63,210 nt of DNA from Candidatus Nomurabacteria bacterium (GCA_943354745.1 CALRDB010000003.1:1-63210); one strand, 5' to 3'. Positions 12,994 to 51,277 are shown, numbered from the stretch's first letter. The notes: a model not told the origin generated them from the sequence alone. Program-made: numbers and translations.

Positions 12994-13041
12994 AGTATGT
13001 ATTGTCGCAATAAACAGGGGACTAATCAAACCTTCCTTTCG

Positions 13042-25729: not shown

Positions 25730-25877
25730 GACACGGAAGCGACACAGAATAAGAACACGGAAAAAACACAGAACCCCCTGCCTCCTCTAACCCTTTAGAG
25801 GGGGGTACCGAGTCTGCGAGGCGAAGCGGTGACGAGAAGGTGGTATGTCTCTAATAATTCTGTACACTTATATTTGT

Positions 25878-27794
25878 ATGAAGTTACCTCAAGAGATTCC
25901 TAATTCAGCTGCTACTACTCCACCTGTTGAACAGTCAACGGATGAGCCTGAAGTAACTCTCACGCGGCAACACGTTCGAGGGTACTCAAAACTCCATTCT
26001 AAAGAAGAGAGGGATATGGTGGCAGAGGAGGTACGCGGTTTACGCACAGACTATTTTAGCCGTATCAGACAACTTGAAGATTCTCTCGCATTAGTTTCGA
26101 GCCAGCTTGCAGAGAAAAAGGCAAAATATGCTGAGGTCGGTGCTGCAATTCCAGAATTAGAGCGGGAATTGGCAGCACTTGAGGGAAGTTCCCTCAATTC
26201 TTTTTTGTCGCTTCTTAATCTCAACAGAAAAGAGCGGAGTTTAAAGAGGGAGGCGATACTGCAAGAGGGAACATTCAAAGAGCTTGAAATTTCCACTGGC
26301 CGTCTGACCGAAACACTTGAGGCGCTTAAGCGCGAGCGTGATTCACGCACGGAGCTGGAGCAGGCCAAGGACCGAGTTAAAGGGTTCTACGCGGAGCAGA
26401 AAGCGGAGCTGAAAACCGAAGTTCTAAAGCTTTTTGTCGAGCAGGCGAAAATACGGGATATCAACCGAATTTCTCAAGAGCATGACGTCATGTTTGTTCA
26501 CGGCATACATCCGAAATTTGTTCCGAAACAGAATTCACTAATGCATAATCAGGCTGATTGGCAAACGAAACTCAAGGTGACTTTGGCGTTTGCACCTACT
26601 GTCTCTAGCTCCACTCTTTCAGATGGAGATGGTCCTGATGCCATGTGGGCACGGATGGGCGTTATTCTCAATGGAGGGCAGGCGGAGAGTGCTTCGCGAG
26701 ATGACAATGCTACGCAAGCGCGAGGCTTTGAAAAACGTAGTGAAAGTCAAACAAAAATGACAGACTATGAGATTCAAAGCGCTATTTCCGGTCGATATAT
26801 GAGAGGCGCAAAGCGATATAATGAATTTTCTGTCGCAACGCCTAAGATAGCCGGTTTTTACTTTTCCAGGGAAGAAACTAAAAACTCACCACCCGACCTC
26901 GTTCCTCTTTCGGAAATCACCGAGACCTGTACTGCGCTCCGGCTGCCGCTCTACGAGATTGTAAAGGGTCAACCGTATCGTACTCATGTGGATGAAAAAA
27001 CAGGTGAGATAATCCGAGGTGAACCCGTTCAGAAAGAAGATTTGGTGAAAAGTTCGTGGAAGATAAGTGAAATAGAGAGAAGTCAGATTATTGAGGAATT
27101 AGTAGACGCCTCGCCGTTCAAGATTGTTCCACAGGAGGGTGACTATATGGACGCGCGGGCTCAAGGTGTCGAGAAATACTTAAATCTGGAGTTTGAGAAA
27201 TTACCCAAAGAGAAACTGGCTGAGGTTAAATCTACGACGACCTCCGGCATTTATACGTATCGTGTTGATTCATCTGGTAAGGATTTGGAACGAAGTTGTG
27301 TCGTACCGTTTCGGGAAAAAGAGCTGACAAAAGAGGAAAGATGGCAATGGAATGTGTTTGACGACCTTCCGAGAGCACTTAATCGGAGAGCTATGGATAA
27401 GTGGAACCAGACCCACCGTGTCTCTATCACGAGCCGCTGGATCATTGAAACTCTCGAGTATTTTGATGCGGAGACATTCTTGCAGGCGCTTAGTCATGAG
27501 GTTTCGCGCTTTGTAAGTTTGAAAGGGCAATTTGAGATGTTGGCAGGAAGGGAGGTAGGAAAGAAACAACATCTTGGAAATCAACTCGCTTTTTTCTTGC
27601 ATGGTTTTGGGGAAGCCGCTAGGCAATTCGGCGAAGTAAAAATTGCGGAGAAGGCGAGACTAATTGCCGACCGTTTGACAGGAGAGAGCGAATATCAAGA
27701 GGTTTTGAAGAAGCGTACTGGCAGTCGAGGATTTTTCCGACTTACTAAGGAAGACATTAAGTATTTGCAAGAAGGAAGAGTTAATGAGGTGTAA
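25878..27794 (+). CDS. Large hypothetical protein: N-terminal coiled coil plus globular domain
   Basis: 638-aa ORF from ATG 25878 (open from 25845); heptad-rich residues about 60-180; no family recognised with certainty. Confidence 0.75.
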   Translation: MKLPQEIPNSAATTPPVEQSTDEPEVTLTRQHVRGYSKLHSKEERDMVAEEVRGLRTDYFSRIRQLEDSLALVSSQLAEKKAKYAEVGAAIPELERELAALEGSSLNSFLSLLNLNRKERSLKREAILQEGTFKELEISTGRLTETLEALKRERDSRTELEQAKDRVKGFYAEQKAELKTEVLKLFVEQAKIRDINRISQEHDVMFVHGIHPKFVPKQNSLMHNQADWQTKLKVTLAFAPTVSSSTLSDGDGPDAMWARMGVILNGGQAESASRDDNATQARGFEKRSESQTKMTDYEIQSAISGRYMRGAKRYNEFSVATPKIAGFYFSREETKNSPPDLVPLSEITETCTALRLPLYEIVKGQPYRTHVDEKTGEIIRGEPVQKEDLVKSSWKISEIERSQIIEELVDASPFKIVPQEGDYMDARAQGVEKYLNLEFEKLPKEKLAEVKSTTTSGIYTYRVDSSGKDLERSCVVPFREKELTKEERWQWNVFDDLPRALNRRAMDKWNQTHRVSITSRWIIETLEYFDAETFLQALSHEVSRFVSLKGQFEMLAGREVGKKQHLGNQLAFFLHGFGEAARQFGEVKIAEKARLIADRLTGESEYQEVLKKRTGSRGFFRLTKEDIKYLQEGRVNEV

Positions 27795-30680: not shown

Positions 30681-31445
30681 ATGGACCACCAGGAACTACT
30701 CCAATCACTCGGACTATCCAAGAACGAGGCCAAGATATATGAAACCCTGCTTAGGCAGGGCGAGGTGGGCGTTGGTGTTATCTCGGAGAAATCCGGCGTG
30801 CATCGACGGAATGTGTACGATTCGCTGAACCGTCTTATGGAAAAGGGTCTTGTATTCGAGGTTGTTGAGTCGGTTGAGAACAAGTATCAGGCGTGTGAGC
30901 CGAAGAAGCTCACCGAGATAGTGATCGAGAAATTGGAGGCGGTAGACAAAGCATTGCCCGAACTTGAGAAACTCCACTTCAGTACTCCATCCACGTATCG
31001 CGTGCACACCTATCGCGGCAAAGAGGGGTGGAAACAGTACATGCGTGACATCATCAAGACCGGTGAGCCGTTCTACTCTATCGCCGCGCAGGGCGCGTGG
31101 CTGGATGAGCGAGTGAAATCATTTATTCCGGCTTTCCTCCAACAGCTCAAGGCAAAAAAGATACCGATGCACCATTTGTTTGATTATGAGGTGAAAGAAA
31201 ACAATCATCCGATTATCAAAGAGGTGGGTAAGGACTACAAATTTCTTCCGAAAAAGTACGCCACCACTTCAGGTATTGATATTTTCGGCGACCACGTGAA
31301 CATCATGCATCACCAGACCTTGGGCAAGGTCGGTACCGACGACGAAATTACCTTTACAGTTATTGTGAACAAAAATCTTGCCGATTCATTTCGAACTTGG
31401 TTTCAGTACATGTGGGACATGTGTCCGAAAACGAACGCGGACTGA
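30681..31445 (+). CDS. TrmB family transcriptional regulator
   Basis: LGLSKNEAKIYETLL..GVHRRNVYDSL wHTH; TYRGKEG effector domain; IDIFGDHV. Confidence 0.88.
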   Translation: MDHQELLQSLGLSKNEAKIYETLLRQGEVGVGVISEKSGVHRRNVYDSLNRLMEKGLVFEVVESVENKYQACEPKKLTEIVIEKLEAVDKALPELEKLHFSTPSTYRVHTYRGKEGWKQYMRDIIKTGEPFYSIAAQGAWLDERVKSFIPAFLQQLKAKKIPMHHLFDYEVKENNHPIIKEVGKDYKFLPKKYATTSGIDIFGDHVNIMHHQTLGKVGTDDEITFTVIVNKNLADSFRTWFQYMWDMCPKTNAD

Positions 31446-32176: not shown

Positions 32177-32791
32177 ATGGATAGACAAACTGCGATTAAA
32201 CAACTGGAAGAGCTAGAGCGGCTGGGTGGGGTAAAAAAGATGCGCCTTGCGGCCGAGGGGTGGAGGGAGGAGTGGCAGACGCTTATCTCAATCCTCATGT
32301 CCGCGCGGACGCGCGATGAAGTGACGGTGATTGTTGCGGAAAATCTGTTTGCGGAGTTCCCGACGCTAGTGGAACTTTTAAAGGCGAATCCAAAGGATGT
32401 GTCGAGGATCATCGGGCCGGTGAACTTTTTTCAAAACAAAACGAAATACGTCATCGCGATTTCCCGAAGGCTGCACGAAAAACACGGCGGCAAACCGCCG
32501 CGTACGATAGAAGAGCTCATCTTGCTCCCCGGCGTCGGTCGTAAAACCGCGAATGTCTTTATTTCAGAATATGGCGCTCCCGCTATCGGCGTGGACACGC
32601 ATGTCTCCTACATCTCACAAAAACTCGGGTGGACGAAGAGCAAAACACCCGACAAAATCGAAATTGATTTGAAAAACCTTTTCCCGCAGAACTTTTGGAG
32701 CCGCGTGAACGGCAGTTGCGTCCGTTTCGGCAAAACCTATATGAGCCGCATCAAAAAAGACGAGCTACTCCAAAAGATTTCCAAAATCTAA
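32177..32791 (+). CDS. nth: Endonuclease III-like HhH-GPD glycosylase lacking the 4Fe-4S motif (copy 1)
   Basis: LMSARTRD, LPGVGRKTAN, GVDTHV; no C-terminal Cys cluster. Confidence 0.85.
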   Translation: MDRQTAIKQLEELERLGGVKKMRLAAEGWREEWQTLISILMSARTRDEVTVIVAENLFAEFPTLVELLKANPKDVSRIIGPVNFFQNKTKYVIAISRRLHEKHGGKPPRTIEELILLPGVGRKTANVFISEYGAPAIGVDTHVSYISQKLGWTKSKTPDKIEIDLKNLFPQNFWSRVNGSCVRFGKTYMSRIKKDELLQKISKI

Positions 32792-33957: not shown

Positions 33958-35259
33958 TTATCTTGAAAGCAACATACTAAGCAAAAGTATGACTGTTGAG
34001 CCAATCAAATACGCATTCATGTCTCGCCATTTACCCCGTACGGCAAACAACACAAGAAAAGCGGCAAATCCGGCAAACATCGCTTTGTCGAGTCCAAAGG
34101 TCCAAATAGTCACCAAAATCATTATCGCTACCGCGACAATGTCAGTCCAAGAGTACTCTTTCAAATCTTTTTTACTTGGAAACAGCATTAGACCGACAAA
34201 GAATAACGCACCTGTGGTAGCGACAACCGGAATGAGGTTTATGAGCGGCACAAGAAACAAGAAGAGTGACATCAAGAGCGCAACTACGACCGCAACCAGT
34301 CCGGTTCTGCCACCTTCTCCAATGCCAACCGCACTTTCCACATACGTAATTAAGTTTGATGTTCCGGTTGCCGCGCCGATAACCGTTCCAGCCCCGTCAA
34401 CAATTAGTCCCTCTTTGAGACGAGGCAAATTTCCCTCACTATCGACAATATTGGTGTTTCTGGTAAGGCCGATAAACTTTGCGATACTTCCGTAGAAATC
34501 AAGAATAAAAAGTACGATAATGACAGACCAGATTTTTGGGTCAAAAATAATACGCCAATCAAACGCAAAAGTTCCGGCTAACATATCTTTGGACAGTGTG
34601 ATGGGCTCGATTGGCTGTGCCACTCCTAAAAAATGAGCAAGGATTGCCGCGCCAATGATACTCAGAATAACGGCACCCTTAATTTTGAAGTGCTTCAATA
34701 TCGCAACCAGAATAAGACCGGCACAAAAGATGATTGCTTCGTGAGAAGTGAGCAACCCTAAGCCTGTAACCTGAATTCCCTCATAGGCGAGTATGCCACT
34801 CACTTTGAGAGCAATAAGCATCAGGAAAACACCAACCGCCGCGGCAAGTCCTGATTTAAGTTTGTCCGGAATTGCTTTAACGATATTTACTCGGAGTGGT
34901 GTATAGCTGAGGAGAACGGTAAAAACTCCGGACCAAAAGACTGCCCCTAACGCACCTTGCCATGTAAAACCTAAAACACCCACAACGACGTAAGCAACAT
35001 ACGCATTCATTTCCAGTCCAGGCGCGACAGCGAACGGCAGTCTTGCCCAGACACCCATCAAAAGAGTTGCGATGACAGAACCTAGAATTGTCGCAAAAAA
35101 AGCAACACTCGTGTTGATTCCTGCGGCCGATAAGATTGCCGGATTAACGACAAAGATATATGAAAGAGAAAGAAACGTTGAAAGACCCGCAAAAATCTCA
35201 ATCCTAAAAGACGAGCCAAGTCTTGTTATTCCAAAGAAATCATCCAGTCTTTTTAGCAT
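33958..35259 (-). CDS. NCS2 family (AzgA/PbuG-like) nucleobase permease
   Basis: EIFAGLSTFLSLSYIFVVNPAIL, APGLEMNAY, TYVESAVGIGEGGRTGL; about 12-13 TM. Confidence 0.9.
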   Translation of the reverse strand: MLKRLDDFFGITRLGSSFRIEIFAGLSTFLSLSYIFVVNPAILSAAGINTSVAFFATILGSVIATLLMGVWARLPFAVAPGLEMNAYVAYVVVGVLGFTWQGALGAVFWSGVFTVLLSYTPLRVNIVKAIPDKLKSGLAAAVGVFLMLIALKVSGILAYEGIQVTGLGLLTSHEAIIFCAGLILVAILKHFKIKGAVILSIIGAAILAHFLGVAQPIEPITLSKDMLAGTFAFDWRIIFDPKIWSVIIVLFILDFYGSIAKFIGLTRNTNIVDSEGNLPRLKEGLIVDGAGTVIGAATGTSNLITYVESAVGIGEGGRTGLVAVVVALLMSLFLFLVPLINLIPVVATTGALFFVGLMLFPSKKDLKEYSWTDIVAVAIMILVTIWTFGLDKAMFAGFAAFLVLFAVRGKWRDMNAYLIGSTVILLLSMLLSR

Positions 35260-36004: not shown

Positions 36005-36793
36005 ATGATAAATGAGCTATTAACGAAATTAGGCTTCAGTGATAAGGAGATTCAGGTGTATCTCGCCGTGCTTGAAAACGGTAAAATTGCACCTGCGCGG
36101 GTTGCTGCCGTTACCAACATCAAGCGCTCTACTGTCTATGCGGTGGCGAAAGAACTCCTGAAAAGAGGTGTTATTACCGAGGATGTTGAGGGTTCAGGTG
36201 GATATTTGGTCGCCTTACCTCCCGAAAACCTCAATTCCGCGGTAAAAGCTGAAGAGCAGGCGATTGCGGAGAAGAAGAAGATTATAAAGGAAGCAGTTTC
36301 AGAACTTCTGACGATACCACAGTCAAAATCGTACTCGGTTCCAAAAATGCGGTTCATTGACGAGTATAACGTGAAGGATTTTCTCTATCGGCAAACGCCG
36401 GTGTGGGAAGAAAGTATGTCGCTCACCAAGGAAACAACGTGGTGGGGATTCCAAGATCATACGTTCGTGGAAGACAAGGAATGCGGCGAATGGGTGGACT
36501 GGTATTGGAGCCGAGCGGCGGAAAAATTCGATTTGAAACTCATCTCCAATGATTCTGAGATTGAAGAGAAGATGAAAGCGAAGAATATTGAACGACGAGT
36601 GATTAAGTTCTGGAAGAAAGATTTCAAGTTTACCGCTACGACATGGATTCTTGGCGAGTATGTCGTCCTCATCATGTCCAAACAGCGTCCTCACTATCTC
36701 GTGGAGATTCACGATGCTGTGTACGCGCAAAATATGCGTGAAGTATTCCGCAATCTTTGGAATGTGATTGATATACCTAGCGCAAACTCATGA
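36005..36793 (+). CDS. TrmB family transcriptional regulator
   Basis: LGFSDKEIQVYLAVL..IKRSTVYAV wHTH; TWILGEYVVL. Confidence 0.88.
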   Translation: MINELLTKLGFSDKEIQVYLAVLENGKIAPARVAAVTNIKRSTVYAVAKELLKRGVITEDVEGSGGYLVALPPENLNSAVKAEEQAIAEKKKIIKEAVSELLTIPQSKSYSVPKMRFIDEYNVKDFLYRQTPVWEESMSLTKETTWWGFQDHTFVEDKECGEWVDWYWSRAAEKFDLKLISNDSEIEEKMKAKNIERRVIKFWKKDFKFTATTWILGEYVVLIMSKQRPHYLVEIHDAVYAQNMREVFRNLWNVIDIPSANS

Positions 36794-37401
36794 AAGAGAA
36801 AGCGATACGACAATTAGAGGAGTTGGAACGGCTTGGGAGCGTAAAGAAAATGCGCCTTGCGGCGGAAGGGTGGAGGGAAGAATGGCAGACCCTGATTGCG
36901 ATTCTCATGTCCGCGCGGACGCGCGATGAAGTGACGGTTATCGTGGCTGAAAATCTGTTTTCCGAATTTGGAACGCTCCAAGAAATTGGTAAGGCAAACC
37001 CACGCGATATCGCGCGGGTTATCGAGCCGGTGAACTTTTCTCAGAATAAAACAAAATACGTGATTGCTATCGCGGAAGTTTTGCTTAGGGAATACAAAGG
37101 GAACCCTCCGCACGAACTTGAAAAATTGATTCTACTTCCGGGTGTGGGACGCAAGACCGCAAATGTTTTTTTGGCGGAGTACGGGGCTGACGCCATCGGT
37201 GTTGATACACACGTTTCCTATATTTCGCAGAAGCTCGGATGGACCAAACATACGGACCCCGACAAGATTGAACAGGATTTGCTCGCGCTCTTTCCGCGGA
37301 CACACTGGCGAAAACTTAACTCCACACTGGTTCGCTTTGGGAAGACGTATCAGAGTAGAATAGAGAAAGACGAATTACTTTTGCGTATAAAGAAATGCTA
37401 A
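36790..37401 (+). CDS. nth: Endonuclease III-like HhH-GPD glycosylase lacking the 4Fe-4S motif (copy 2)
   Basis: Same motifs as 32177..32791 with long identical peptide stretches (KKMRLAAEGWREEWQTLI, SARTRDEVTVIVAENLF). Confidence 0.85.
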   Translation: MKEKAIRQLEELERLGSVKKMRLAAEGWREEWQTLIAILMSARTRDEVTVIVAENLFSEFGTLQEIGKANPRDIARVIEPVNFSQNKTKYVIAIAEVLLREYKGNPPHELEKLILLPGVGRKTANVFLAEYGADAIGVDTHVSYISQKLGWTKHTDPDKIEQDLLALFPRTHWRKLNSTLVRFGKTYQSRIEKDELLLRIKKC

Positions 37402-41546: not shown

Positions 41547-42419
41547 ATGCAGTGTATGAAGATTACACCGGTGCATATTCGGACGTTTCAAGAAACAGTG
41601 TTTCGCTTTTATACAAAACAGAGTAGGTCCTTACCATGGAGAGATGCACGCGACCCGTACGCGATTTTGGTTTCGGAAATAATGCTTCAGCAGACGCAGG
41701 CGGAGCGAGTGGTTCCTTTTTATGAAACGTTTCTTAAGAAGTTTCCCACTCTTCAGACACTTGCTCGGGCGTCCGTTGGTGAGGTGCTGCGATTATGGCA
41801 AGGACTCGGCTACAACCGGCGCGCGCTCAATTTAAAACGTTCTGCGGAAATGATTGTAAATGAATACGGAGGAGTTTTTCCAGAAACCGTTGAGGCGATA
41901 GACACGCTTCCCGGAGTCGGTCCGTACACTGCGGGAGCTGTCGCTGCCTTCGCTTTTGGCAACTCCTCCGCGTTTATTGAAACAAATATCCGTACTGTGT
42001 ATCTTCACTTCTTTTTTCGGGACAAGTTGAACGTGTCCGATGAAGACATCTTGACGGTGATCCGTCAGACCTTACCCGACGCCCAACATTCCAACATTCT
42101 CAAGAATGTTGGAATGTTGGGACGTAAAAAAGTAGTGCGCGAGTGGTACAACGCGCTCATGGACTACGGAGCAATGTTGAAAAAGAAAGAAGGGAATGAA
42201 AATGTCAGGAGCGCTGGCTACAAAAAACAGTCAAAGTTTAAAGGTTCACAAAGAGAGTTGCGCGGAGAGATATTGCGTAAAGCTTCGCATGGTATAGTCT
42301 ATGCATCAACCTTCGCAACACGTGAGCAAAAAGGCCTTTCTGTTTCACAAACTCTTTCGGATCTTGAATCGGAAGGGTTTCTGAGAAAGAAGGGAACTGG
42401 TTTTGTATATGCATCATGA
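41547..42419 (+). CDS. mutY: A/G-specific adenine glycosylase MutY-like (no 4Fe-4S Cys motif)
   Basis: DPYAILVSEIMLQQTQ, WQGLGYNRRA, LPGVGPYTA, IETNIRTV, ALMDYGA. Confidence 0.88.
   Translation: MQCMKITPVHIRTFQETVFRFYTKQSRSLPWRDARDPYAILVSEIMLQQTQAERVVPFYETFLKKFPTLQTLARASVGEVLRLWQGLGYNRRALNLKRSAEMIVNEYGGVFPETVEAIDTLPGVGPYTAGAVAAFAFGNSSAFIETNIRTVYLHFFFRDKLNVSDEDILTVIRQTLPDAQHSNILKNVGMLGRKKVVREWYNALMDYGAMLKKKEGNENVRSAGYKKQSKFKGSQRELRGEILRKASHGIVYASTFATREQKGLSVSQTLSDLESEGFLRKKGTGFVYAS
42083..42120. repeat. Perfect 18-bp inverted repeat inserted in frame in mutY
   Basis: ccaacattccaacattct-ca-agaatgttggaatgttgg, encoding QHSNILKNVGML. Confidence 0.8.
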
Positions 42420-44371: not shown

Positions 44372-44442
44372 GCGGGATTAGTTTAATGGTAGAACTGCAG
44401 TTTTCCAAACTGTAGGCGGGAGTTCGATTCTCCCATCCCGCA
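44372..44442 (+). tRNA. tRNA-Gly(TCC), CCA not encoded
   Basis: GCGGGAT/ATCCCGC acceptor stem, GCAGT-TTTCCAA-ACTGT anticodon arm, GTTCGATTC T-loop. Confidence 0.92.
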
Positions 44443-44645
44443 TACCCAAAAGAAATGACCGGCCTTTGCCGGTCATTTCTTTTGGGTATGCGGAGATGAG
44501 CAAGTGAACTGCTTCACTTTCGTGGAGAATCGAAAAGCGGAGCCATGTTTTTCAGTAGAAAAACAGGCGAGCTAGGGTCGAGAATTTCGTGAGCGGCGGC
44601 GAACGAAAATTCATGACCGATCCGCGAAGCTTCTCCCCTCCCGCA
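44443..44645 (+). mobile_element. tRNA-3'-associated miniature element ending in a near copy of the tRNA-Gly 3' end
   Basis: Long hairpin starting in the tRNA 3' end (ccgcatacccaaaagaaatgaccgg...ccggtcatttcttttgggtatgcgg); inverted T-arm ggagaatcgaa; terminal ttctcccctcccgca. Confidence 0.55.
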
Positions 44646-44674: not shown

Positions 44675-44869
44675 TCACTCTCCCCGCAAGACCTTAAATA
44701 ATTCAACTTCTAGGCGAAATAATGTATCCTGCATCTTCTTCAGTTCGTCTAATTTTTCTTGAGAAAGAATTGATTCAGGCGATTCGATAAGTTTCAGAAT
44801 AGAGTTATCGTATTTTTCATCGAGGGCTTTCCACGCGTCTCCTAATTCCTTTAGTTTTTCTTTTTTCAT
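44675..44869 (-). CDS. Small acidic/helical hypothetical protein
   Basis: 64-aa ORF whose ATG overlaps the aldolase stop (ATGA). Confidence 0.6.
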   Translation of the reverse strand: MKKEKLKELGDAWKALDEKYDNSILKLIESPESILSQEKLDELKKMQDTLFRLEVELFKVLRGE

Positions 44870-45642
44870 GTTTGTATCAATTCTGGTGATCTAATAATGC
44901 CGCGTGAGGCCAGAGCTTTTTTTATGCCGACATACCAAGTCTTTGAAGCCAAATCGAGCTCTTCCCATTTTTCCATTATCTGCCTGTTCAATTCTGCTGA
45001 TGGAGTGCCAAACATGTCGTTACATAATTTGGGCTCAGTATTGGCCAAAGAAATCAGATATCCGTCACAGCCGATAGATTCCAATAGTTGATTTTCCATT
45101 CCCTGGAGAACGCTCATTCTAAGTTTGCCGATCTTTCTAAGTTTTATCAGTTTTGTAAAGAGATCCATGTTCTTGGAACTGTCTTTGATGGCGATGATAT
45201 TTTCGATACGGTCTACTTCCCGAATCGCCCGTACTGATTTGAGCGCCGTAGTCTCGGTATTGTAAATGATAATAGGGAGAGAAACTTCCTCTGATATTTT
45301 CTTGAAGAACATGATATTTTTGTCATCGGAATTGAATGGAACAGGTATAACGACAGCTTCACATCCAAGTTTCTCCGCACTTCTAGCGAGCCGAATGATA
45401 CTTTTTATTTCTTTCCGTTTGATACCGGCGATAACGGGTTTTGTTGTTTTTGCTCTAACCGTTTTCACAACTTCTATCCATTGTGAATCAGACAAAAGTC
45501 CCCCTTCTCCGGAACTCAAACAGGGTACGTAGCCATCGACATGTGGTTCGACCGTGTTCATTAGATCCCTCATCGAATCGCTGTCGAATTTCCCATGGTA
45601 CATGGGCGTAACAAGCGGTATCCATAGTCCTGTTATTTGCAT
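44866..45642 (-). CDS. DHDPS/NAL-family class I aldolase (RohR-like candidate)
   Basis: LWIPLVTPM, CLSSGEG, IIIYNT (Tyr), IAIKDSS (Schiff-base Lys), DGYLISLAN; lacks the canonical DapA GTTGE. Confidence 0.8.
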   Translation of the reverse strand: MQITGLWIPLVTPMYHGKFDSDSMRDLMNTVEPHVDGYVPCLSSGEGGLLSDSQWIEVVKTVRAKTTKPVIAGIKRKEIKSIIRLARSAEKLGCEAVVIPVPFNSDDKNIMFFKKISEEVSLPIIIYNTETTALKSVRAIREVDRIENIIAIKDSSKNMDLFTKLIKLRKIGKLRMSVLQGMENQLLESIGCDGYLISLANTEPKLCNDMFGTPSAELNRQIMEKWEELDLASKTWYVGIKKALASRGIIRSPELIQT

Positions 45643-46793
45643 AAATTTTTTTCGTATGTATCGAGAGCTCTACGTACTAACGTAATTGCCGGCTTAAACA
45701 TCTCGGTATTGCGGGCCAGCGCGATCCTCACATAACGCTCTCCTTTTGTACGATCGCTCCAGAAAAAGTAAGTGCCGGGAAGAATATATACACCGGCGTC
45801 CAAAACCAACTTTTGCAGTTCCGTCGCTGTTACTCGGGGTTCTTTGATCCTCAACCAAGCGACGCTCACCCCTGCTTCCGATTCTTGGTATTCCAAAAGG
45901 GATCCAGCAAGCATTTCTTTTAACAGATTTCGGTTTGTATCGAGCAGATTATAAACCGATTCAAAGTGATCTCTTTCGGAGTCCAGAATATACTGCGTAG
46001 CAAGATTCAAGATGAAGGGAGAAACATTCAAGAGGTAGGAAGTATGGATGTTGTATATTTCCTCATGCAAGTCTTTGCTCGTTTTGAGCATGGCCACTTT
46101 CGTATCTTGGATTGGATATGTTTTGCCTGTGTCTTCGATGGCGATGTAACTCACTCCTGATCGTTCTAGTATTTCGTAGACGGGAGCTACTTTGATATGC
46201 GGGGCGTAGTCTACGAAAGGCGCAAAGCAGTAGTCGATCAGTAAAAGCTTGTTTTTGTCTTTGGCGAAGCGGATCAGTTCGCTGTATGCTTTGTCGCCAT
46301 GTGAAAAGAGCGTGAATCCTGTTGGGTTATTGGGATCAACAATAAAGATAGCATCTGTTTTTACATGCTTCTCAAGGTTGTCATACAAGGTGGAAGGGTT
46401 ATGAAGCCATTCTTCCTTAAGTACCACTATCTCGATCTGCATGTGTTCCAAAATGTCATGGATATTGTCGAAACAGGGCTCAAGCAGACTCACTGACATT
46501 TTGTTCTTCATAAGATAGTTTGCGACTATCACCATGGCAATAGAAGAGGCGTACACGAGCATTGTCGGCGTTTTTAGTGCGTATTCCTGTTTCTGGACAC
46601 GGAAAAAAGTCTCGATAAATTTCTGTTCCGTGTCATATTGCCGTGTCTTTTCCGCTTCGTACCAAAGACTGGAAAGTCTGCCCACAATTTCCCTTTGGGA
46701 AGGGGATTGGGATTGGTGGGTATGTGCGTCGGCGAGGTTGTATTTCACTTTCAACGCCTCGATCTCATGTTGTGTAATATCTTTATATTCCAT
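45633..46793 (-). CDS. PLP-dependent L-arginine oxidase/hydroxylase, RohP/MppP/Ind4 family (fold type I)
   Basis: ITQHE...KYNLADAHTHQ, EPCFDN, VDPNNPTGF, IDYCF, EDTGKTYP (PLP Lys), HTSYLLNVSPF, LPGTYFFWS, YVRIALAR match family motifs as recalled. Confidence 0.85.
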   Translation of the reverse strand: MEYKDITQHEIEALKVKYNLADAHTHQSQSPSQREIVGRLSSLWYEAEKTRQYDTEQKFIETFFRVQKQEYALKTPTMLVYASSIAMVIVANYLMKNKMSVSLLEPCFDNIHDILEHMQIEIVVLKEEWLHNPSTLYDNLEKHVKTDAIFIVDPNNPTGFTLFSHGDKAYSELIRFAKDKNKLLLIDYCFAPFVDYAPHIKVAPVYEILERSGVSYIAIEDTGKTYPIQDTKVAMLKTSKDLHEEIYNIHTSYLLNVSPFILNLATQYILDSERDHFESVYNLLDTNRNLLKEMLAGSLLEYQESEAGVSVAWLRIKEPRVTATELQKLVLDAGVYILPGTYFFWSDRTKGERYVRIALARNTEMFKPAITLVRRALDTYEKNLCK

Positions 46794-46962
46794 ATTTCTG
46801 ATTATTTATTCTGGAATAATTTTCCCACGAACTTGCAATTCTGTCTAATAAGTGTTAAAATAGAGACATCAAAAGTGGATAATATGGCTCTAATGCGTGG
46901 AGTAGATGTCAAAAACTGTCAGATTTATTGACTTTTTGTGCTTTGGGGTAGATACTAAACGT

Positions 46963-47694
46963 ATGATAGAAACCTTAAAATTGCTTGGAATAAAAGACAA
47001 AGCCGCGCATGTATACAGCGCGGCTCTTGCTCTCGGAACCTCTTCCGTCAAGGATATTGCCGAAAAAGCGGCCCTCAAGCGGCCAACGGTCTATGTATAC
47101 CTTGAAGAGTTGGCAAAAGATGGCTTTGTCCAAAAGATCACGATCGGCAAGAAAGAGTATTACCAAGCGACTTCGCCGCGGCTTATTGAAATGCGTCTTG
47201 AGGAGAATCTAAAGTCGCTCAAAAAAGAGATGCCGCATCTTGAGATGCTCCACATGCAAGCGCAAGGTAAACCGGGTGTCACGGTCTTTGAAGGAGAAAG
47301 AGGATTGAATCAGCTCTATGAGGAAGTGAAGCGCACCAAGGACCTTATCTTCTGGTCGGACCTTTCCTCGGTGGAAGCGCTGTTTCCGGATACGGTTCGT
47401 AAAATAAGCGAGGCGATTCTTGATAATAAAATCTTTACACGCGAGATTCTCGCCGATACGCCGGAAGCACGGGCAAGTTCCCGCCGGTTCAAGGTGGTTG
47501 CGGCGGATTTCTACATGGGACGTCTTGCGACCGGTCCAATCTTCAACGACAGCGTTATTTATGACAACGTCGTCGCGTTTTTCCGTATTCAGCAAAACAA
47601 TCTCTTTGTCGTTCGTATCGAAGACCCGACGATTGCCGTAACGATGAAAACGCTATTCGAAATGGCCTGGCAGTCGGCCAAGCCGTTTAAGTAA
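46963..47694 (+). CDS. TrmB family transcriptional regulator (ATG 46963)
   Basis: LGIKDKAAHVYSAAL..LKRPTVYVYL wHTH; VFEGERGL; DSVIYDNVV. Confidence 0.87.
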   Translation: MIETLKLLGIKDKAAHVYSAALALGTSSVKDIAEKAALKRPTVYVYLEELAKDGFVQKITIGKKEYYQATSPRLIEMRLEENLKSLKKEMPHLEMLHMQAQGKPGVTVFEGERGLNQLYEEVKRTKDLIFWSDLSSVEALFPDTVRKISEAILDNKIFTREILADTPEARASSRRFKVVAADFYMGRLATGPIFNDSVIYDNVVAFFRIQQNNLFVVRIEDPTIAVTMKTLFEMAWQSAKPFK

Positions 47695-47745: not shown

Positions 47746-48528
47746 TCAGTTGCGGAGCTTGGAGTCGAGACGTTTGGCCTCTGCCCAGGCGAGTTCGTAG
47801 ATTTTCTTCATCGCGTCGGCGATCTCCGCGCTTTCAATGATGATGCCGAGCTTTTCGCGCCATGACGCAATCAAGATTTTATTGTCGTAAATGTTTATTT
47901 CCGGAGAAAAAGAAAATTTATCTGGAGGTATAAAGGCAATCTCTCGTTTTTCTTCTTCACCATAGGGCACGCGGGCGCGCGCTATCGGCGTGTGGGGAAC
48001 AATCGCGCGTATCGCGATACCCGCGTCTGCTCGTCGTTTGTAGTATTCGGGAAAGTAATTCGGGAGACCTTTGTGCATATCTTCCACGTTGGCGTACGCA
48101 CGGATAGGTTCCTGTGAAGTAAGTGTATCTTCGTACACCTGTTTTAAACCATCAGTTCCTTCGTAAAATTTTATTTTCGGCCGGTTTTGCGTCGCGTGTA
48201 CTGAACGGAGCTGGGGGAGAAGTGCTCCAGCCTTTTCGATGCGATCCCTCGCAAGTTCCGCTTCGCGCTTTAAGTAGGCAACCACCGATTCCGGCGGTTC
48301 TGCGGCATACTCTTGTTTCGGCTCCTTTCCGGTCACGTTTACAATGCCTTTGCTTGAGAGGGAATCCAAGATGTCATAGCCGGTCGTGCGGTTGATGCCC
48401 GCCTTACGGGCTATTTCAGTAACAGTGCCATGTCCAAGCTCCAGCAATGCCACATAGACAATTGATTCCTTTTCGCTAAACCCAAGTGTGTGCAGGGTAG
48501 AGGGGAGTTCTTTGTTTTGTGTTTCCAT
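47746..48528 (-). CDS. TrmB family transcriptional regulator
   Basis: LGFSEKESIVYVALLEL..GINRTTGYDIL; FYEGTDGL; EINIYDNKI. Confidence 0.9.
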   Translation of the reverse strand: METQNKELPSTLHTLGFSEKESIVYVALLELGHGTVTEIARKAGINRTTGYDILDSLSSKGIVNVTGKEPKQEYAAEPPESVVAYLKREAELARDRIEKAGALLPQLRSVHATQNRPKIKFYEGTDGLKQVYEDTLTSQEPIRAYANVEDMHKGLPNYFPEYYKRRADAGIAIRAIVPHTPIARARVPYGEEEKREIAFIPPDKFSFSPEINIYDNKILIASWREKLGIIIESAEIADAMKKIYELAWAEAKRLDSKLRN

Positions 48529-48829: not shown

Positions 48830-50245
48830 TTGAAATTTTATACAGAGATAAAGTTCGCAACACAAAACCTCAACGAATGGACTAAAGCAATGCAAAACAA
48901 GACAACCTTAGTACTCACATACAACAAAGTGGACGGATTCAAGCCGGGTGCTTACGGAAACGGACGCGTCGTGGTTCTCCAGGCCGACCTCGCGAAGTTC
49001 AAGGATAACGACACGGAGAAAAGCTCATTCGAGCTTTACTTCCAGACGTTCAACCTGGTGAAGAGAAACATTGCCGAGGCAATTATTTACCTCGGCGATC
49101 TCAAAGAGGCTTCACCTAATTGGCAAGCAAAACGCCGAGCGTTTGATGCGATGTATCGCACAGCCATAGCACACGTCAAGACAGCGGATAAGGTGCTTAT
49201 GGTTACATGTCGATGTGACCGTGACCTGAAGGAAAAGTTTGCCGAACAGCTCAGGGTCAAGCTTATCTGGTCAGGGTGTGGGGGAGGGAGAACGCTCGGG
49301 CGGCTAATACAGGAGCGTCTGGATGAAGTACCCCAAGCTCCAACAGTCAGAGAGCTCGCGCTTCAAGTGGAGTTCGCTACTCTGGCACAGGAGAATGGCT
49401 GGGTACAGACACCCTCCTTTAGGAACTTCGCCGTTCTCGGTGCAACGCTCTTTGCTAACAGAAACGACGGAACCATTTTTAAAAAAACCGAAAGTGGTTG
49501 GGACGAAAATGGTTTGCAGATCGCTTTCGGTGCTAACGAAATGAAAGAAAACAGAGATAGGAAAAAACTGAAGATACTAGTGTTCGCTGGTGGCGGAATA
49601 GATCGCAAATCAGCCGAGTTCAGTCTCGCAGGTCATGAGCTCACCATCGTGGGGACTTATGACGAGGCACAAGATGCTCTGATCCCCAAAACGAACTACA
49701 CAGAAAAAGAGAGTATTTACCGCAAGCTTTCCGCGGAAAAGGGTGGGGGGATTAGAATGTGGAAGAGAGAGGAAATGATGGCGAAAGCGGAAACACTGGC
49801 CACAACGTTTCCGGACTTTGATGTCGTCTTAACCGACCTGCTTGTGCCGGCATCGGCGAGGATTCAAGGTTTCCAACAATTCGTTGGTCAGAAGATGCCT
49901 CTCGGATCCGTGATTGCCTTGTTGGCACTTACCGCGCGTGTCAAAAATGTGGCGGTGGTAACCGATATGAATCACCACAACCCCCCGGCATCGGCGGCCT
50001 TCGATTGCTTTACGGAAAAACAACATTGCGAAGGTATCAGAATACTGTGCACGAACAATGTTGGTCGTATTAGAATTGACACTGAAACAAATACGGCGGT
50101 CGCTCATGATTTCCTCGAGTCCGATGCCAGCCTGGAGAAATATCCGTATTTGAGGCAAGGGGAAGAAGGGTGGGGAGAACGCAAAGGTCTCACTATTGGT
50201 GGCAAGGATTGGGGAAAAATCCTCCGTTTGGTGGTTGGCGACTAA
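48830..50245 (+). CDS. Hypothetical multi-domain protein; C-terminal half receiver (REC)-like (start perhaps 48890)
   Basis: C-half LKILVF..., FDVVLTDLLVP, PLGSVIALLA, VAVVTD pattern; N-half unrecognised. Confidence 0.65.
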   Translation: MKFYTEIKFATQNLNEWTKAMQNKTTLVLTYNKVDGFKPGAYGNGRVVVLQADLAKFKDNDTEKSSFELYFQTFNLVKRNIAEAIIYLGDLKEASPNWQAKRRAFDAMYRTAIAHVKTADKVLMVTCRCDRDLKEKFAEQLRVKLIWSGCGGGRTLGRLIQERLDEVPQAPTVRELALQVEFATLAQENGWVQTPSFRNFAVLGATLFANRNDGTIFKKTESGWDENGLQIAFGANEMKENRDRKKLKILVFAGGGIDRKSAEFSLAGHELTIVGTYDEAQDALIPKTNYTEKESIYRKLSAEKGGGIRMWKREEMMAKAETLATTFPDFDVVLTDLLVPASARIQGFQQFVGQKMPLGSVIALLALTARVKNVAVVTDMNHHNPPASAAFDCFTEKQHCEGIRILCTNNVGRIRIDTETNTAVAHDFLESDASLEKYPYLRQGEEGWGERKGLTIGGKDWGKILRLVVGD

Positions 50246-50449: not shown

Positions 50450-51277
50450 ATGAGTGATTCGGAAACGACAAAAATAGTGCTGTTCAAGGGCGCGAAGGTT
50501 CGGAAGACACTGCATCATGGCGAGTGGTGGTTTGTGATTGTTGATGTGATTTCTGCTCTTACGGACTCCACTCAACCAGAGGGCTATTTAAAAGATATGC
50601 GTCGGCGGGATGAAGAACTTGCTAAAGGGTGGGGGCAGATTGCCACCCCCCTTTCAATTGGAACGGAAGGAGGGACTCAAAAGATGAACTGTGCTACGAC
50701 CGAAGGTCTCTTCCGTATAGTGCAATCCATCCCGTCTCCCAAAGCTGAGCCGTTCAAACGATGGCTGGCGAAGGTGGGGTATGAGCGAGTGCAGGAAATA
50801 GAGAATCCGGAACTGGCGACGAAGCGGACGAGAATGCTCTACAAACTGAAAGGGTATAGTGAGGACTGGATAGAGAAACGGATGCGCGGAATCGCCATTC
50901 GGGAGGAGTTGACGGATGAATGGAAGAATCGGGGAGCGCGAGATAGACAGGACTATGAGATATTGACCGCGGAAATATCAAAAGCGACATTTGGCGTAAC
51001 GCCGAGCGAATACAAGAAACTGAAAGGACTGCAGAGAGAAAATCTGCGGGACCATATGACGGATTTCGAGCTCATCTTCAATATGCTTGGTGAACGCGCA
51101 ACGACGGAGATTCATCGTGTCGAAGACTCGAAGGGTATACCGAAACTGAAAAGCGATGCGAAGGCCGGTGGAGATATCGCAGGAGGGGCGAGAAAGAAAT
51201 TGGAAGATAGGCTCGGGCAGTCGGTTGTATCTAAGAAGAATTATTTAAAGAATAGGGAAGATAAGAGGTTAAGATAA
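50450..51277 (+). CDS. Bro-N domain (antirepressor-like) protein
   Basis: WWFVIVDVISALT, RIVQSIPSPKAEPFKRWLAKVGYER, ENLRDHMTD.ELIF. Confidence 0.87.
   Translation: MSDSETTKIVLFKGAKVRKTLHHGEWWFVIVDVISALTDSTQPEGYLKDMRRRDEELAKGWGQIATPLSIGTEGGTQKMNCATTEGLFRIVQSIPSPKAEPFKRWLAKVGYERVQEIENPELATKRTRMLYKLKGYSEDWIEKRMRGIAIREELTDEWKNRGARDRQDYEILTAEISKATFGVTPSEYKKLKGLQRENLRDHMTDFELIFNMLGERATTEIHRVEDSKGIPKLKSDAKAGGDIAGGARKKLEDRLGQSVVSKKNYLKNREDKRLR

What the first reader, a model, noticed from the sequence alone, without database searches (positions are those of the whole stretch)
44675..47694. RohP/MppP-like O2-dependent arginine oxidase plus RohR-like aldolase operon in a CPR-type genome
Seen: a coupled minus-strand operon (45633..46793, 44866..45642, 44675..44869) divergent from a TrmB gene and lying directly behind tRNA-Gly(TCC). 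The PLP enzyme carries NLADAHTHQ, DPNNPTG, EDTGK and LLNVSPF, and the partner is a DHDPS-family enzyme without the DapA GTTGE motif. Established: RohP/MppP/Ind4 enzymes oxidise L-Arg with O2 to 2-ketoarginine or 4-hydroxy-2-ketoarginine, releasing NH3 and H2O2. In azomycin biosynthesis RohR cleaves the product to pyruvate plus guanidinoacetaldehyde, which cyclises to 2-aminoimidazole. Inference: a presumed fermentative, host-dependent cell has a truncated roh pathway (no RohQ/S/T-like gene in the window). It could use it to make a 2-aminoimidazole-type effector, to get pyruvate from arginine, or to scavenge O2. The 64-aa ORF may be an unknown accessory subunit.
Basis: partly seen in the sequence, partly recalled or inferred. 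Interest (0 to 1): 0.88.

Follow-up and report, generated by a model that had tools for sequence, protein, structure and literature searches.

The report
Truncated azomycin-type arginine operon in Patescibacteria
An ultra-small (Patescibacteria) bacterium carries a three-gene operon with clear relatives of the first two azomycin-pathway enzymes plus an undescribed 64-residue protein, so it probably converts arginine and oxygen into pyruvate and 2-aminoimidazole, which I found no report of for this group.

Summary
The 386-aa PLP protein (P, 45633-46793, minus strand) matches the solved RohP structure 6c3a at E 6.6e-133. Ordinary aminotransferases score 37 bits or less. Every active-site residue reported for MilM/MppP/RohP is present. 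The 258-aa DHDPS-family protein (R) scores 216 bits on an HMM built only from RohR proteins of complete roh clusters. E. coli DapA and NanA score about 100 on that HMM. R keeps the Schiff-base Lys and the catalytic Tyr but lacks DapA's Arg138 and Tyr107. In most of about 90 loci from several phyla, a RohR-type gene lies beside the RohP-type gene. NusA places the window in Patescibacteria, near Taylorbacteria. RohQ, RohS and the Rieske gene are absent from all 63 kb. The window belongs to a clade (CPR, Pseudanabaenaceae, proteobacterial MAGs) that never carries RohS, so the predicted end product is 2-aminoimidazole, not azomycin. New here: the 64-aa ORF is a real family (X, 54 representative clusters, helical hairpin). 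X lies next to R or P in 11 of 13 informative loci and never occurs with RohQ. This is a new variant of a known pathway. Enzyme activities and physiological role are untested.

The parts
45633..46793 (-). rohP-like gene (P): fold-type I PLP enzyme, predicted O2-dependent L-arginine oxidase / C4-hydroxylase, 386 aa
   Evidence: PDB 6c3a (RohP) E 6.6e-133, MppP 5dj1 E 9e-46, 7n79 E 1e-37, generic aminotransferases <=37 bits. MilM/MppP/RohP active-site residues map to T7, E10, H24, Y81, S84, F108, N110, N156, D187, K224, K232, T251, R356. All are invariant among 11 diverse homologues. 52% identical to S. eurocidicus RohP.
44866..45642 (-). rohR-like gene (R): DHDPS-family class I (Schiff-base) aldolase, 258 aa, predicted 4-hydroxy-2-ketoarginine retro-aldolase
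   Evidence: 216 bits (E 6e-67) on an HMM of 45 RohR proteins from RohS-containing clusters. E. coli DapA scores 105 and NanA 101. NCBIfam dapA 88.9 bits, below the 206 cut-off. Schiff-base Lys (AIKDSS) and Tyr (IYNTE) are kept, LSSGEG matches RohR LSTGEG, and DapA R138 and Y107 are replaced. A RohR-type gene lies beside P in most loci surveyed.
44675..44869 (-). gene X: 64-aa helical-hairpin protein, a cluster-linked accessory gene of unknown function that occupies the position RohQ has in sister clusters
   Evidence: 54 representative clusters at E<=1e-3, nearly all 58-84 aa. Signature W13, L16, D/N17, Y20, D21 ... K44, M46, Q47, L50, E54. AF2 pLDDT 92.6, two helices. Adjacent to R or P in 11 of 13 informative loci and never seen with RohQ. 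No Pfam or NCBIfam hit and no informative fold match.
46794..46905 (.). 112-bp divergent intergenic region between P and the TrmB-like gene; likely promoter/operator region
   Evidence: Sequence. Consensus promoter-like sites occur on both strands (minus strand 46847-46819; plus strand 46833-46861 and 46855-46883), but no more often than in shuffled sequence. This is inference only.
46906..47694 (+). TrmB-family regulator, divergent from P; possible but unproven regulator of the operon
   Evidence: Pfam TrmB E 3e-12. A TrmB-like gene is also divergent from P in L086/87/88, L051 and L103. The window alone has five TrmB-like genes, so adjacency may be chance.
44441..44490 (.). Perfect 27-bp-stem hairpin between X and tRNA-Gly(TCC); likely bidirectional terminator ending the operon
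   Evidence: Predicted fold -51.5 kcal/mol; the arms are at 44441-44463 and 44468-44490 and extend to 27 pairs. The hairpin overlaps the last 2 nt of the tRNA.

Best explanation
The operon is a minimal, oxygenase-less version of the azomycin (roh) pathway. Step 1 (inferred from close homology): P binds L-arginine as a PLP aldimine and uses O2 as electron acceptor. It makes (S)-4-hydroxy-2-ketoarginine, with 2-ketoarginine as a by-product, and releases NH3 and H2O2. Step 2 (inferred from subfamily membership and conserved synteny): R forms a Schiff base through its conserved lysine and cleaves that 4-hydroxy-2-keto acid by a retro-aldol reaction into pyruvate and guanidinoacetaldehyde. Step 3 (inferred): guanidinoacetaldehyde cyclises and dehydrates to 2-aminoimidazole. 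In other clusters RohQ accelerates this reaction, which also proceeds spontaneously. This window has no RohQ, so the step is either spontaneous or assisted by protein X. No N-oxygenase (RohS) is present, so the pathway stops at 2-aminoimidazole and does not reach the nitroimidazole. I consider 2-aminoimidazole, or a close derivative, the selected product, with pyruvate as a useful by-product. The three genes are co-transcribed and translationally coupled. Transcription ends at a strong hairpin in front of tRNA-Gly.
For: P: 447 bits to RohP 6c3a, 160 to MppP, 133 to 7n79 and <=37 to ordinary aminotransferases. The Lys of EDTGK in 6c3a is chain residue 255, which is 235 after a 20-aa tag. That matches the published RohP Lys235. 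All residues shown by mutagenesis or modelling to bind PLP and L-Arg in MilM are conserved, including the catalytic His and the N-terminal Thr/Glu. R: 216 bits on the RohR-only HMM against about 100 for DapA and NanA. It shares the RohR motifs P-x-L-S-[ST]-G-E-G, LQG[MW]E and a short C-terminus. In the NJ tree it is monophyletic with RohR relative to DapA and NanA. Synteny: a RohR-type gene lies beside P in most of about 90 loci from Actinomycetota, Gammaproteobacteria, Cyanobacteria and at least nine CPR lineages. These include the characterised S. eurocidicus rohPQRST cluster, L079. Pathway chemistry: RohP oxidase, RohR retro-aldolase and RohQ cyclodehydratase convert L-Arg stepwise to 2-aminoimidazole (PMC10724926). 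The RohQ reaction is described as spontaneous in the title of Wei et al., JACS 2025, cited in PMC13133933. End product: 11 of 21 RohS-less sister clusters keep RohQ (= DUF6190 = PDB 9c5w 'Cyclodehydratase RohQ'). RohQ only makes sense if 2-aminoimidazole is wanted. Operon structure: 10-nt and 4-nt gene overlaps and a terminal hairpin.
Against: No activity was measured. Identity to characterised enzymes is moderate: P about 52% to S. eurocidicus RohP, and R only 28% to S. eurocidicus RohR. Hydroxylase versus desaturase outcome in this enzyme family is reported to depend on dynamics rather than on simple residues (PMC12464687), so the C4-hydroxylation is inferred mainly from the presence of the aldolase. 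P scores below the NCBIfam MppP equivalog cut-off (159 against 450), though that model is MppP-specific. RohQ could be encoded elsewhere in the genome, because only 63 kb were available. The physiological purpose is not established. The chemistry costs two O2 and yields two H2O2 per product, which is awkward for a cell with limited redox defences, and no peroxide-handling gene is seen in the window.
Confidence: 0.68

Rival explanations
1. Same chemistry, different purpose. The pair is a catabolic or protective module that harvests pyruvate and ammonia from scavenged arginine, or consumes O2. Guanidinoacetaldehyde and 2-aminoimidazole are then waste.
For: CPR cells depend on imported amino acids and on fermentation of pyruvate-level intermediates. 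O2 scavenging has been proposed for terminal oxidases of freshwater CPR (PMC9166423). The window's cluster, four Pseudanabaenaceae clusters and one Uhrbacteria cluster lack RohQ. A LysE-type exporter and an amino-acid-type binding protein lie elsewhere in the window.
Against: Yield is poor: one pyruvate for two O2 and two H2O2. H2O2 production is the opposite of protection. Eleven of 21 RohS-less sister clusters retain the dedicated cyclodehydratase RohQ, and some add a methyltransferase. That points to the heterocycle as the product. Every characterised relative is biosynthetic (PMC12464687).
Confidence: 0.15
2. The DHDPS-like enzyme works like MilN of mildiomycin biosynthesis. It would use 4-hydroxy-2-ketoarginine or 2-ketoarginine in a C-C coupling or some other non-cleaving reaction. 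The product would then be a larger guanidino compound, not 2-aminoimidazole.
For: In the mildiomycin cluster a RohP homologue (MilM, 60% identical to RohP) is accompanied by MilN, a DHDPS-like protein. MilN is proposed to take part in attaching the arginine-derived keto acid to the nucleoside (bioRxiv 10.64898/2026.02.25.707955). Class I aldolases are reversible.
Against: No candidate partner-substrate genes lie in the operon, which has only three genes. R scores as well on the RohR-only HMM as R proteins of clusters that carry RohQ. RohQ co-occurs with the same R clade in sister CPR clusters, which implies guanidinoacetaldehyde is formed there. No MilN sequence was available for direct comparison.
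Confidence: 0.07
3. P is a desaturase-type arginine oxidase (Ind4/Plu4-like) or only a 2-ketoarginine-forming oxidase, and R acts on something else.
For: Desaturases and hydroxylases share active-site residues and the early mechanism (PMC12464687), so sequence alone cannot fully separate them. P matches 7n79 at E 1e-37; from memory, 7n79 is the desaturase Plu4.
Against: P is far closer to the hydroxylase RohP (447 bits) than to 7n79 (133 bits). In most loci surveyed it is paired with the aldolase, which needs the 4-hydroxy group.
Confidence: 0.06
4. These are ordinary housekeeping enzymes: a class I aminotransferase and a DapA for diaminopimelate/lysine synthesis feeding peptidoglycan.
For: Public annotations call the homologues 'aspartate/tyrosine/aromatic aminotransferase'. 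The best solved-structure hits of R are DapA proteins. The window encodes a Mur ligase and Ddl.
Against: P gives 447 bits to RohP and <=37 to real aminotransferases. R is below the dapA equivalog cut-off (88.9 against 206), lacks DapA Arg138 and Tyr107, and scores 216 on the RohR HMM where real DapA scores 105. Genuine S. eurocidicus RohR also has DapA 3flu as its best PDB hit at the same E-value, so that hit says nothing specific.
Confidence: 0.02

Closest known systems
rohPQRST azomycin (2-nitroimidazole) cluster of Streptomyces eurocidicus / S. cattleya / Pseudomonas (Hedges & Ryan 2019; PMC12713392; PMC10724926)
   Same: P is homologous to RohP (52% to S. eurocidicus RohP; E 6.6e-133 to the RohP structure 6c3a). 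R belongs to the RohR subfamily. The genes are adjacent on the same strand. The predicted chemistry of the first two steps is the same.
   Different: The window has no RohQ, no RohS (N-oxygenase) and no Rieske protein, so the predicted end point is 2-aminoimidazole, not azomycin. Gene order is P-R-X instead of P-Q-R-S-T. An unrelated 64-aa protein sits where sister CPR clusters have RohQ. The host is a Patescibacterium. P and R belong to a separate clade (CPR, Pseudanabaenaceae, proteobacterial MAGs) that never carries RohS.
P-R-Q clusters of other Patescibacteria and MAGs found here (L001 Patescibacteria, L003 Yanofskybacteria, L005/L006 Peribacteria, L051 Kerfeldbacteria, L086 groundwater)
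   Same: Same clade of P and R, same absence of RohS, same kind of host.
   Different: They keep RohQ (DUF6190), and the window has X instead. The closest P (L086, 83%) is paired with an R that is only 48% identical. This is an outlier (z = -2.8), which suggests the downstream half of the operon was exchanged.
MppP/MppQ/MppR (enduracididine biosynthesis)
   Same: MppP catalyses the same O2/PLP-dependent arginine hydroxylation. The catalytic Lys, His and N-terminal Thr/Glu are conserved.
   Different: P gives only 160 bits to MppP and is below the MppP equivalog cut-off. No MppR- or MppQ-type partner was seen among the window ORFs scanned. The partner here is an aldolase that cleaves the product rather than cyclising it.
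MilM/MilN (mildiomycin biosynthesis)
   Same: A RohP-type hydroxylase accompanied by a DHDPS-like protein.
   Different: MilM/MilN sit in a 17-gene nucleoside-antibiotic cluster, and the keto acid is incorporated rather than cleaved. Here the operon has three genes and R groups with RohR. MilN was not available for direct comparison.
DapA / NanA (dihydrodipicolinate synthase, N-acetylneuraminate lyase)
   Same: Same family, with the Schiff-base Lys and catalytic Tyr conserved.
   Different: GTTGE is replaced by LSSGEG, DapA Arg138 by Thr and Tyr107 by Phe. The C-terminal domain is about 30 aa shorter. R is below the dapA cut-off.

Membership tests
RohP/MppP/MilM-type O2-, PLP-dependent L-arginine oxidases | Fold-type I PLP enzyme with the Schiff-base lysine in the E-D-T-G-K motif (RohP K235, MppP K221, MilM K232) | tested here: met
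   Window K224 in EDTGK aligns with the lysine of 6c3a and 5dj1. The column is invariant in alignment A1. Pfam Aminotran_1_2 E 2e-14.
RohP/MppP/MilM-type O2-, PLP-dependent L-arginine oxidases | Catalytic His (MppP H29, MilM H31) and the N-terminal helix Thr/Glu that close over the guanidinium, plus the remaining PLP/Arg ligands (Y89, S92, F116, N118, N164, D195, K240, T259, R364 in MilM numbering) | tested here: met
   The window equivalents are T7, E10, H24, Y81, S84, F108, N110, N156, D187, K232, T251 and R356. All are present and invariant among 11 diverse homologues. The residue list is from bioRxiv 10.64898/2026.02.25.707955.
RohP/MppP/MilM-type O2-, PLP-dependent L-arginine oxidases | Much closer in sequence to characterised arginine oxidases than to transaminases | tested here: met
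   447 bits to RohP, 160 to MppP, 133 to 7n79, and 37 bits for the best ordinary aminotransferase.
RohP/MppP/MilM-type O2-, PLP-dependent L-arginine oxidases | L-Arg-dependent O2 consumption with H2O2 and NH3 release; 4-hydroxy-2-ketoarginine as product | not testable with these tools
   Biochemical assay needed.
MppP equivalog (NCBIfam TIGR04462) | Score at or above the curated cut-off of 450 bits | tested here: not met
   158.9 bits. P is not an MppP orthologue. It is of the RohP branch, for which this call returned no dedicated NCBIfam model.
RohR-type retro-aldolases (DHDPS superfamily) | Class I aldolase with Schiff-base Lys and catalytic Tyr | tested here: met
   The Lys in AIKDSS aligns with DapA K161, and the Tyr in IYNTE with DapA Y133. 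Pfam DHDPS E 7e-25.
RohR-type retro-aldolases (DHDPS superfamily) | Groups with RohR of complete roh clusters rather than with DapA or NanA | tested here: met
   RohR-only HMM: window 216 bits, DapA 105, NanA 101. The NJ tree shows monophyly with RohR. It shares the P-x-L-S-[ST]-G-E-G and LQG[MW]E motifs.
RohR-type retro-aldolases (DHDPS superfamily) | Encoded next to a rohP gene | tested here: met
   Overlaps P by 10 nt. The same adjacency is seen in most surveyed loci.
RohR-type retro-aldolases (DHDPS superfamily) | Cleaves 4-hydroxy-2-ketoarginine to pyruvate and guanidinoacetaldehyde | not testable with these tools
   Biochemical assay needed. No RohR structure was found in the PDB copy searched.
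Azomycin biosynthetic gene cluster (rohPQRST) | Cyclodehydratase RohQ (DUF6190) | tested here: not met
   No hit in the window by tblastn or by an HMM of 71 RohQ sequences, best E 0.99. The rest of the genome could not be searched.
Azomycin biosynthetic gene cluster (rohPQRST) | N-oxygenase RohS (PF14518, HDO family) and the associated Rieske protein | tested here: not met
   No hit in the window. RohS is absent from all 21 loci of the window's clade.
DapA (4-hydroxy-tetrahydrodipicolinate synthase) | TIGR00674 cut-off (206 bits); GTTGE motif; Arg138 for aspartate semialdehyde; Tyr107 of the catalytic triad | tested here: not met
   88.9 bits. LSSGEG replaces GTTGE, R138 is Thr and Y107 is Phe.

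The most novel reading that the evidence does not exclude
Protein X is a non-homologous replacement for the cyclodehydratase RohQ. On this reading the 64-residue helical hairpin captures guanidinoacetaldehyde leaving the aldolase and promotes, or chaperones, its ring closure to 2-aminoimidazole. Its invariant Trp/Tyr/Asp/Gln/Glu residues would form the binding surface. More broadly, the RohS-less P-R-(Q or X) module would be a widespread 2-aminoimidazole factory of ultra-small symbionts: many CPR lineages and possibly a DPANN archaeon. Its product would act on hosts or neighbours as a diffusible effector.
Probability: 0.2. Interest if true: 0.78.

Novelty: new variant of a known kind. Interest (0 to 1): 0.6.

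Why it matters
Patescibacteria have minimal genomes with very little recognisable secondary metabolism, and how they influence their hosts is largely unknown. This analysis finds a compact, well-conserved module, currently annotated as 'aminotransferase' plus 'dihydrodipicolinate synthase'. It appears in many CPR lineages, in Pseudanabaenaceae and in proteobacterial MAGs, and by close homology it should make 2-aminoimidazole from arginine and O2. If correct, it gives CPR biology a concrete small molecule that can be assayed. It shows that an O2-dependent PLP oxidase is maintained in cells usually described as fermenters. It separates a 2-aminoimidazole-only branch of the roh family from the nitroimidazole-producing branch. 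It also defines a new small-protein family (X) that alternates with RohQ. That offers an experimentally tractable question about why an enzyme is kept for a reaction that also occurs spontaneously.

Tried and rejected
1. I looked for a degraded RohQ in the 180-nt spacer between X and the hairpin, and elsewhere in the window. Nothing was found by tblastn or HMM.
2. I scanned the window against Rfam for a riboswitch, for example a guanidine-type one. Only four tRNAs were found.
3. The sigma-70 promoter scan gave no more sites than shuffled sequence, so no promoter is claimed.
4. The word-based homology search for X found only one relative. The exhaustive HMMER search was needed and found 54.
5. 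The Foldseek search of the X model found only generic helical hairpins and designed coiled coils (best E 0.5), so no functional inference is drawn.
6. I tried to name the source organism from cluster-member names. None were available. A NusA homology search was used instead.
7. The TrmB-like regulator as a dedicated regulator: it is adjacent to P in only 4 lineages, and TrmB genes are very common here, so the link is weak.
8. The context of the 'Pacearchaeota' homologue was uninformative, because P sits at the contig end.
9. The RohQ mechanism paper (JACS 2025) is not held in the library, so the spontaneity of the cyclisation rests on its title as cited elsewhere.
10. The 516-aa ORF I first took as 'RohT' in L079 is probably a spurious high-GC ORF. 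The conserved gene after RohS is a small Rieske protein.


Full report
OBSERVATION. The R start codon lies inside the last codons of P, a 10-nt overlap. The R stop and X start share ATGA. The genes therefore look translationally coupled. tRNA-Gly(TCC) lies at 44372-44442 on the other strand. Between it and X there is a perfect hairpin with a 27-bp stem (44441-44490, -51.5 kcal/mol), which is the obvious terminator. A TrmB-family gene (46906-47694, +) is divergent from P across 112 bp. All four quoted motifs are present in P, and R has LSSGEG in place of GTTGE.

THE GENOME. The window is an ordinary bacterial chromosome segment. It encodes UvrD, PNPase, a CCA-adding enzyme, a Mur ligase, Ddl, RNase Y, ClpP, trigger factor, an H+-pyrophosphatase and NusA. 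It also has five TrmB-like regulators and three HhH-GPD glycosylases. The closest named relatives of its NusA are Candidatus Taylorbacteria (85%) and Parcubacteria/Patescibacteria group bacteria. The P protein is also found on NCBI assembly GCA_943350625.1. That accession series neighbours a lake-derived Peribacteria MAG (L005). 'CPR-type genome' is therefore correct. GC content across the operon is unremarkable.

THE PLP ENZYME. Against all PDB sequences, P hits 6c3a-6c3d at E 6.6e-133 (447 bits). MppP follows at 160 bits and 7n79 at 133 bits. Real aminotransferases score at most 37 bits. The 6c3a entry is labelled 'Uncharacterized protein'. From memory it is RohP of S. cattleya. This is supported by the EDTGK lysine of the chain being residue 255, which is 235 after a 20-residue tag. 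That is the number given for RohP in the MilM preprint. S. cattleya as the source of RohP is stated in PMC7497351. The residues assigned to PLP and L-arginine binding and catalysis in MilM are T14, E17, H31, Y89, S92, F116, N118, N164, D195, K232, K240, T259 and R364. They correspond to T7, E10, H24, Y81, S84, F108, N110, N156, D187, K224, K232, T251 and R356 in P. These are invariant in an alignment of 11 diverse homologues that includes RohP. NCBIfam ranks the MppP model first, but P scores below its equivalog cut-off. P is therefore of the RohP branch and is not an MppP orthologue.

THE ALDOLASE. Pfam and NCBIfam see only a generic DHDPS-family protein. The dapA model gives 88.9 bits against a cut-off of 206. 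I built an HMM from 45 proteins occupying the RohR position in clusters that also contain RohS. These are complete azomycin-type clusters of actinomycetes and gammaproteobacteria. The window's R scores 216 bits (E 6e-67) on it, while E. coli DapA and NanA score 105 and 101. In the alignment R keeps the Schiff-base lysine and the catalytic tyrosine. It shares P-x-L-S-[ST]-G-E-G, LQG[MW]E and a shortened C-terminus with RohR. It has Thr and Phe where DapA has Arg138 and Tyr107. An NJ tree puts every P-adjacent aldolase in one group apart from DapA and NanA. Genuine S. eurocidicus RohR has the same best PDB hit (DapA 3flu, E 1.4e-17) as the window's R (E 1.7e-17). The DapA resemblance is therefore just the family background.

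SYNTENY AND THE SHAPE OF THE FAMILY. A scan of one genome per species returned 80 loci. Further loci came from contig look-ups. In S. eurocidicus, L079 is the canonical cluster. It has P, Q (DUF6190, Pfam 1.6e-63; PDB 9c5w 'Cyclodehydratase RohQ', E 1e-27), R, S (PF14518) and a small Rieske gene. The pathway is described as RohP oxidase, RohR retro-aldolase and RohQ cyclodehydratase giving 2-aminoimidazole, which RohS oxidises to azomycin (PMC10724926). The P and R trees both split into two groups. One is an actinomycete plus gammaproteobacterial group that has RohS. The other contains CPR lineages (Peribacteria, Andersenbacteria, Yanofskybacteria, Doudnabacteria, Kerfeldbacteria, Uhrbacteria and unclassified Patescibacteria), Pseudanabaenaceae and proteobacterial MAGs, and it never has RohS. 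The window belongs to the second group. Neither tblastn nor HMMs find Q, S or the Rieske gene anywhere in the window.

THE 64-RESIDUE PROTEIN. X has no Pfam or NCBIfam match, and the word-based search found only one relative. Homologues nevertheless lie directly after R in Andersenbacteria (L008, 67% identity), Doudnabacteria (L018) and L011, where the protein is a tandem-duplicated 147-aa form. In a Peribacteria locus (L009) a homologue is divergent from P. A metagenome scan seeded with X gave P-R-X or R-X in L089, L090 and L094. An exhaustive HMMER search found 54 representative clusters, nearly all 58-84 aa. Contexts of five of them gave R-X three times (L099, L100, L101), P-X once (L098) and one contig-edge case. 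In total X is adjacent to R or P in 11 of 13 informative loci. The exceptions are L091 and L095. Among the 21 RohS-less loci found through P, 11 have Q, 5 have X, 5 have neither and none has both. The nominal hypergeometric p is about 0.012, or about 0.02 after collapsing close relatives. This is my arithmetic and is not corrected for phylogeny. The AlphaFold model is a confident two-helix hairpin (pLDDT 92.6) with no informative structural neighbour. Across 52 members the near-invariant residues are W13, Y20, D21, Q47 and E54, with L16, D/N17, K44, M46 and L50 also strongly conserved. These residues recur at i+4 and i+7 spacing, which suggests a conserved polar surface.

MOSAICISM. The closest P (L086, a groundwater contig, 83% identity) belongs to a P-R-Q cluster, and its R is only 48% identical to the window's R. 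Other pairs with P at 83-86% have R at 73-77%. This pair is the strongest negative outlier of 190 pairs (z = -2.8). The downstream part of the operon (R plus Q or X) has probably been exchanged.

MECHANISM AND PURPOSE. The best-supported reading is this. L-Arg plus O2 gives 4-hydroxy-2-ketoarginine (P). That is cleaved to pyruvate and guanidinoacetaldehyde (R). The aldehyde closes to 2-aminoimidazole, either spontaneously or helped by X, and no nitro group is formed. All steps are inferred from homology and synteny, and none is shown. That RohQ catalyses a reaction which is also spontaneous is known to me only from the title of Wei et al. 2025 as cited in PMC13133933. That paper is not held. 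Retention of RohQ in half of the sister clusters, and an added methyltransferase in L001, argue that the heterocycle is the selected product rather than pyruvate. The O2 requirement is not paradoxical. [quoted passage not shown] Peroxiredoxins, glutaredoxins and catalases are reported in almost all freshwater CPR MAGs (PMC9166423). That the window's MAG comes from that study is my inference from accession and name patterns only.

RIVALS. There are four. (a) A catabolic or O2-scavenging role with the same chemistry. (b) A MilN-like, non-cleaving role for R. (c) An Ind4/Plu4-like desaturase outcome for P, which sequence cannot fully exclude. (d) Ordinary aminotransferase plus DapA, which the data reject.

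NOVELTY. The enzymes are new members of known families. The architecture is a new variant: P-R-X, no RohS, in Patescibacteria. A full-text search found no paper linking 2-aminoimidazole, RohR or 4-hydroxy-2-ketoarginine to Patescibacteria. Public annotations call these proteins aminotransferases. I rate interest at 0.6. The result is solid, unreported as far as I could find, and experimentally tractable. It is nonetheless an extension of known chemistry rather than a new principle. The upside lies in X and in the biology of 2-aminoimidazole in ultra-small symbionts.

Noticed in passing
window 13042-13845(-), 30681-31445(+), 36005-36793(+), 46906-47694(+), 47746-48528(-); 32177-32791(+), 36790-37401(+), 41547-42419(+): The 63-kb window holds five TrmB-like regulator genes and three HhH-GPD DNA-glycosylase genes. 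One TrmB gene (36005-36793) overlaps the start of a glycosylase gene (36790-37401), as if the two form a pair.
   Followed up: no
L037 8001-12689 (S. eurocidicus second cluster) and most actinomycete loci L021-L065: Most actinomycete loci are not the canonical rohPQRST. They are P-Q-R-S-Rieske plus a 357-aa PRMT-like methyltransferase. S. eurocidicus, S. albireticuli and S. blastmyceticus carry both cluster types. This suggests a second, possibly methylated, nitroimidazole-type product.
   Followed up: partly
window 45633-46793 and 44866-45642 versus L086 562-1716 and 1901-2644: P is 83% identical between the window and the groundwater contig L086, but R is only 48% identical (z = -2.8 among 190 pairs). 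L086 has RohQ where the window has X. This looks like an exchange of the downstream half of the operon.
   Followed up: partly
L001 8566-9237; L003 7198-8022: Other CPR clusters carry extra genes. L001 has a 223-aa SAM methyltransferase after RohQ. The Yanofskybacteria locus L003 has a 274-aa protein without a Pfam hit between P and R; its N-terminus looks like a signal or transmembrane segment (my reading of the sequence). These hint at modified 2-aminoimidazole products.
   Followed up: no
P0026 (458 aa, Planctomycetota MAG): A RohP homologue (67% identity) is fused to an N-terminal excisionase/MerR-type helix-turn-helix domain.
   Followed up: no
L025, L032, L044 (filamentous cyanobacteria); L009 7663-8829 (Peribacteria): These RohP homologues have no RohR-type aldolase beside them. 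L009 has only the duplicated X gene, divergent from P. The arginine oxidase may therefore serve other pathways there.
   Followed up: partly
L103 5001-6182 (contig attributed to a Pacearchaeota archaeon): A 58%-identical RohP homologue occurs on a contig labelled DPANN archaeon. A TrmB-like gene lies upstream on the opposite strand. P sits at the contig end, so the presence of R could not be judged.
   Followed up: partly
window 44441-44490: A perfect inverted repeat with a 27-bp stem (-51.5 kcal/mol) overlaps the last 2 nt of tRNA-Gly(TCC). It is unusually long for a terminator, and each arm occurs only once in the window.
   Followed up: partly
window 9131-9757(+), 13990-15129(+), 33958-35259(-): The window has a LysE-type exporter (a family I recall as exporting basic amino acids), a Peripla_BP_6 solute-binding protein and a xanthine/uracil-family permease. 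These are conceivable transport partners for arginine or 2-aminoimidazole, but they are 10-35 kb from the operon.
   Followed up: no
window 25845-27794(+), 48830-50245(+), 343-1299(-), 12052-13029(-), 50450-51277(+): Several large ORFs have no Pfam match (649, 471, 318 and 325 aa). A Bro-N domain protein lies just downstream of the second TrmB gene.
   Followed up: no
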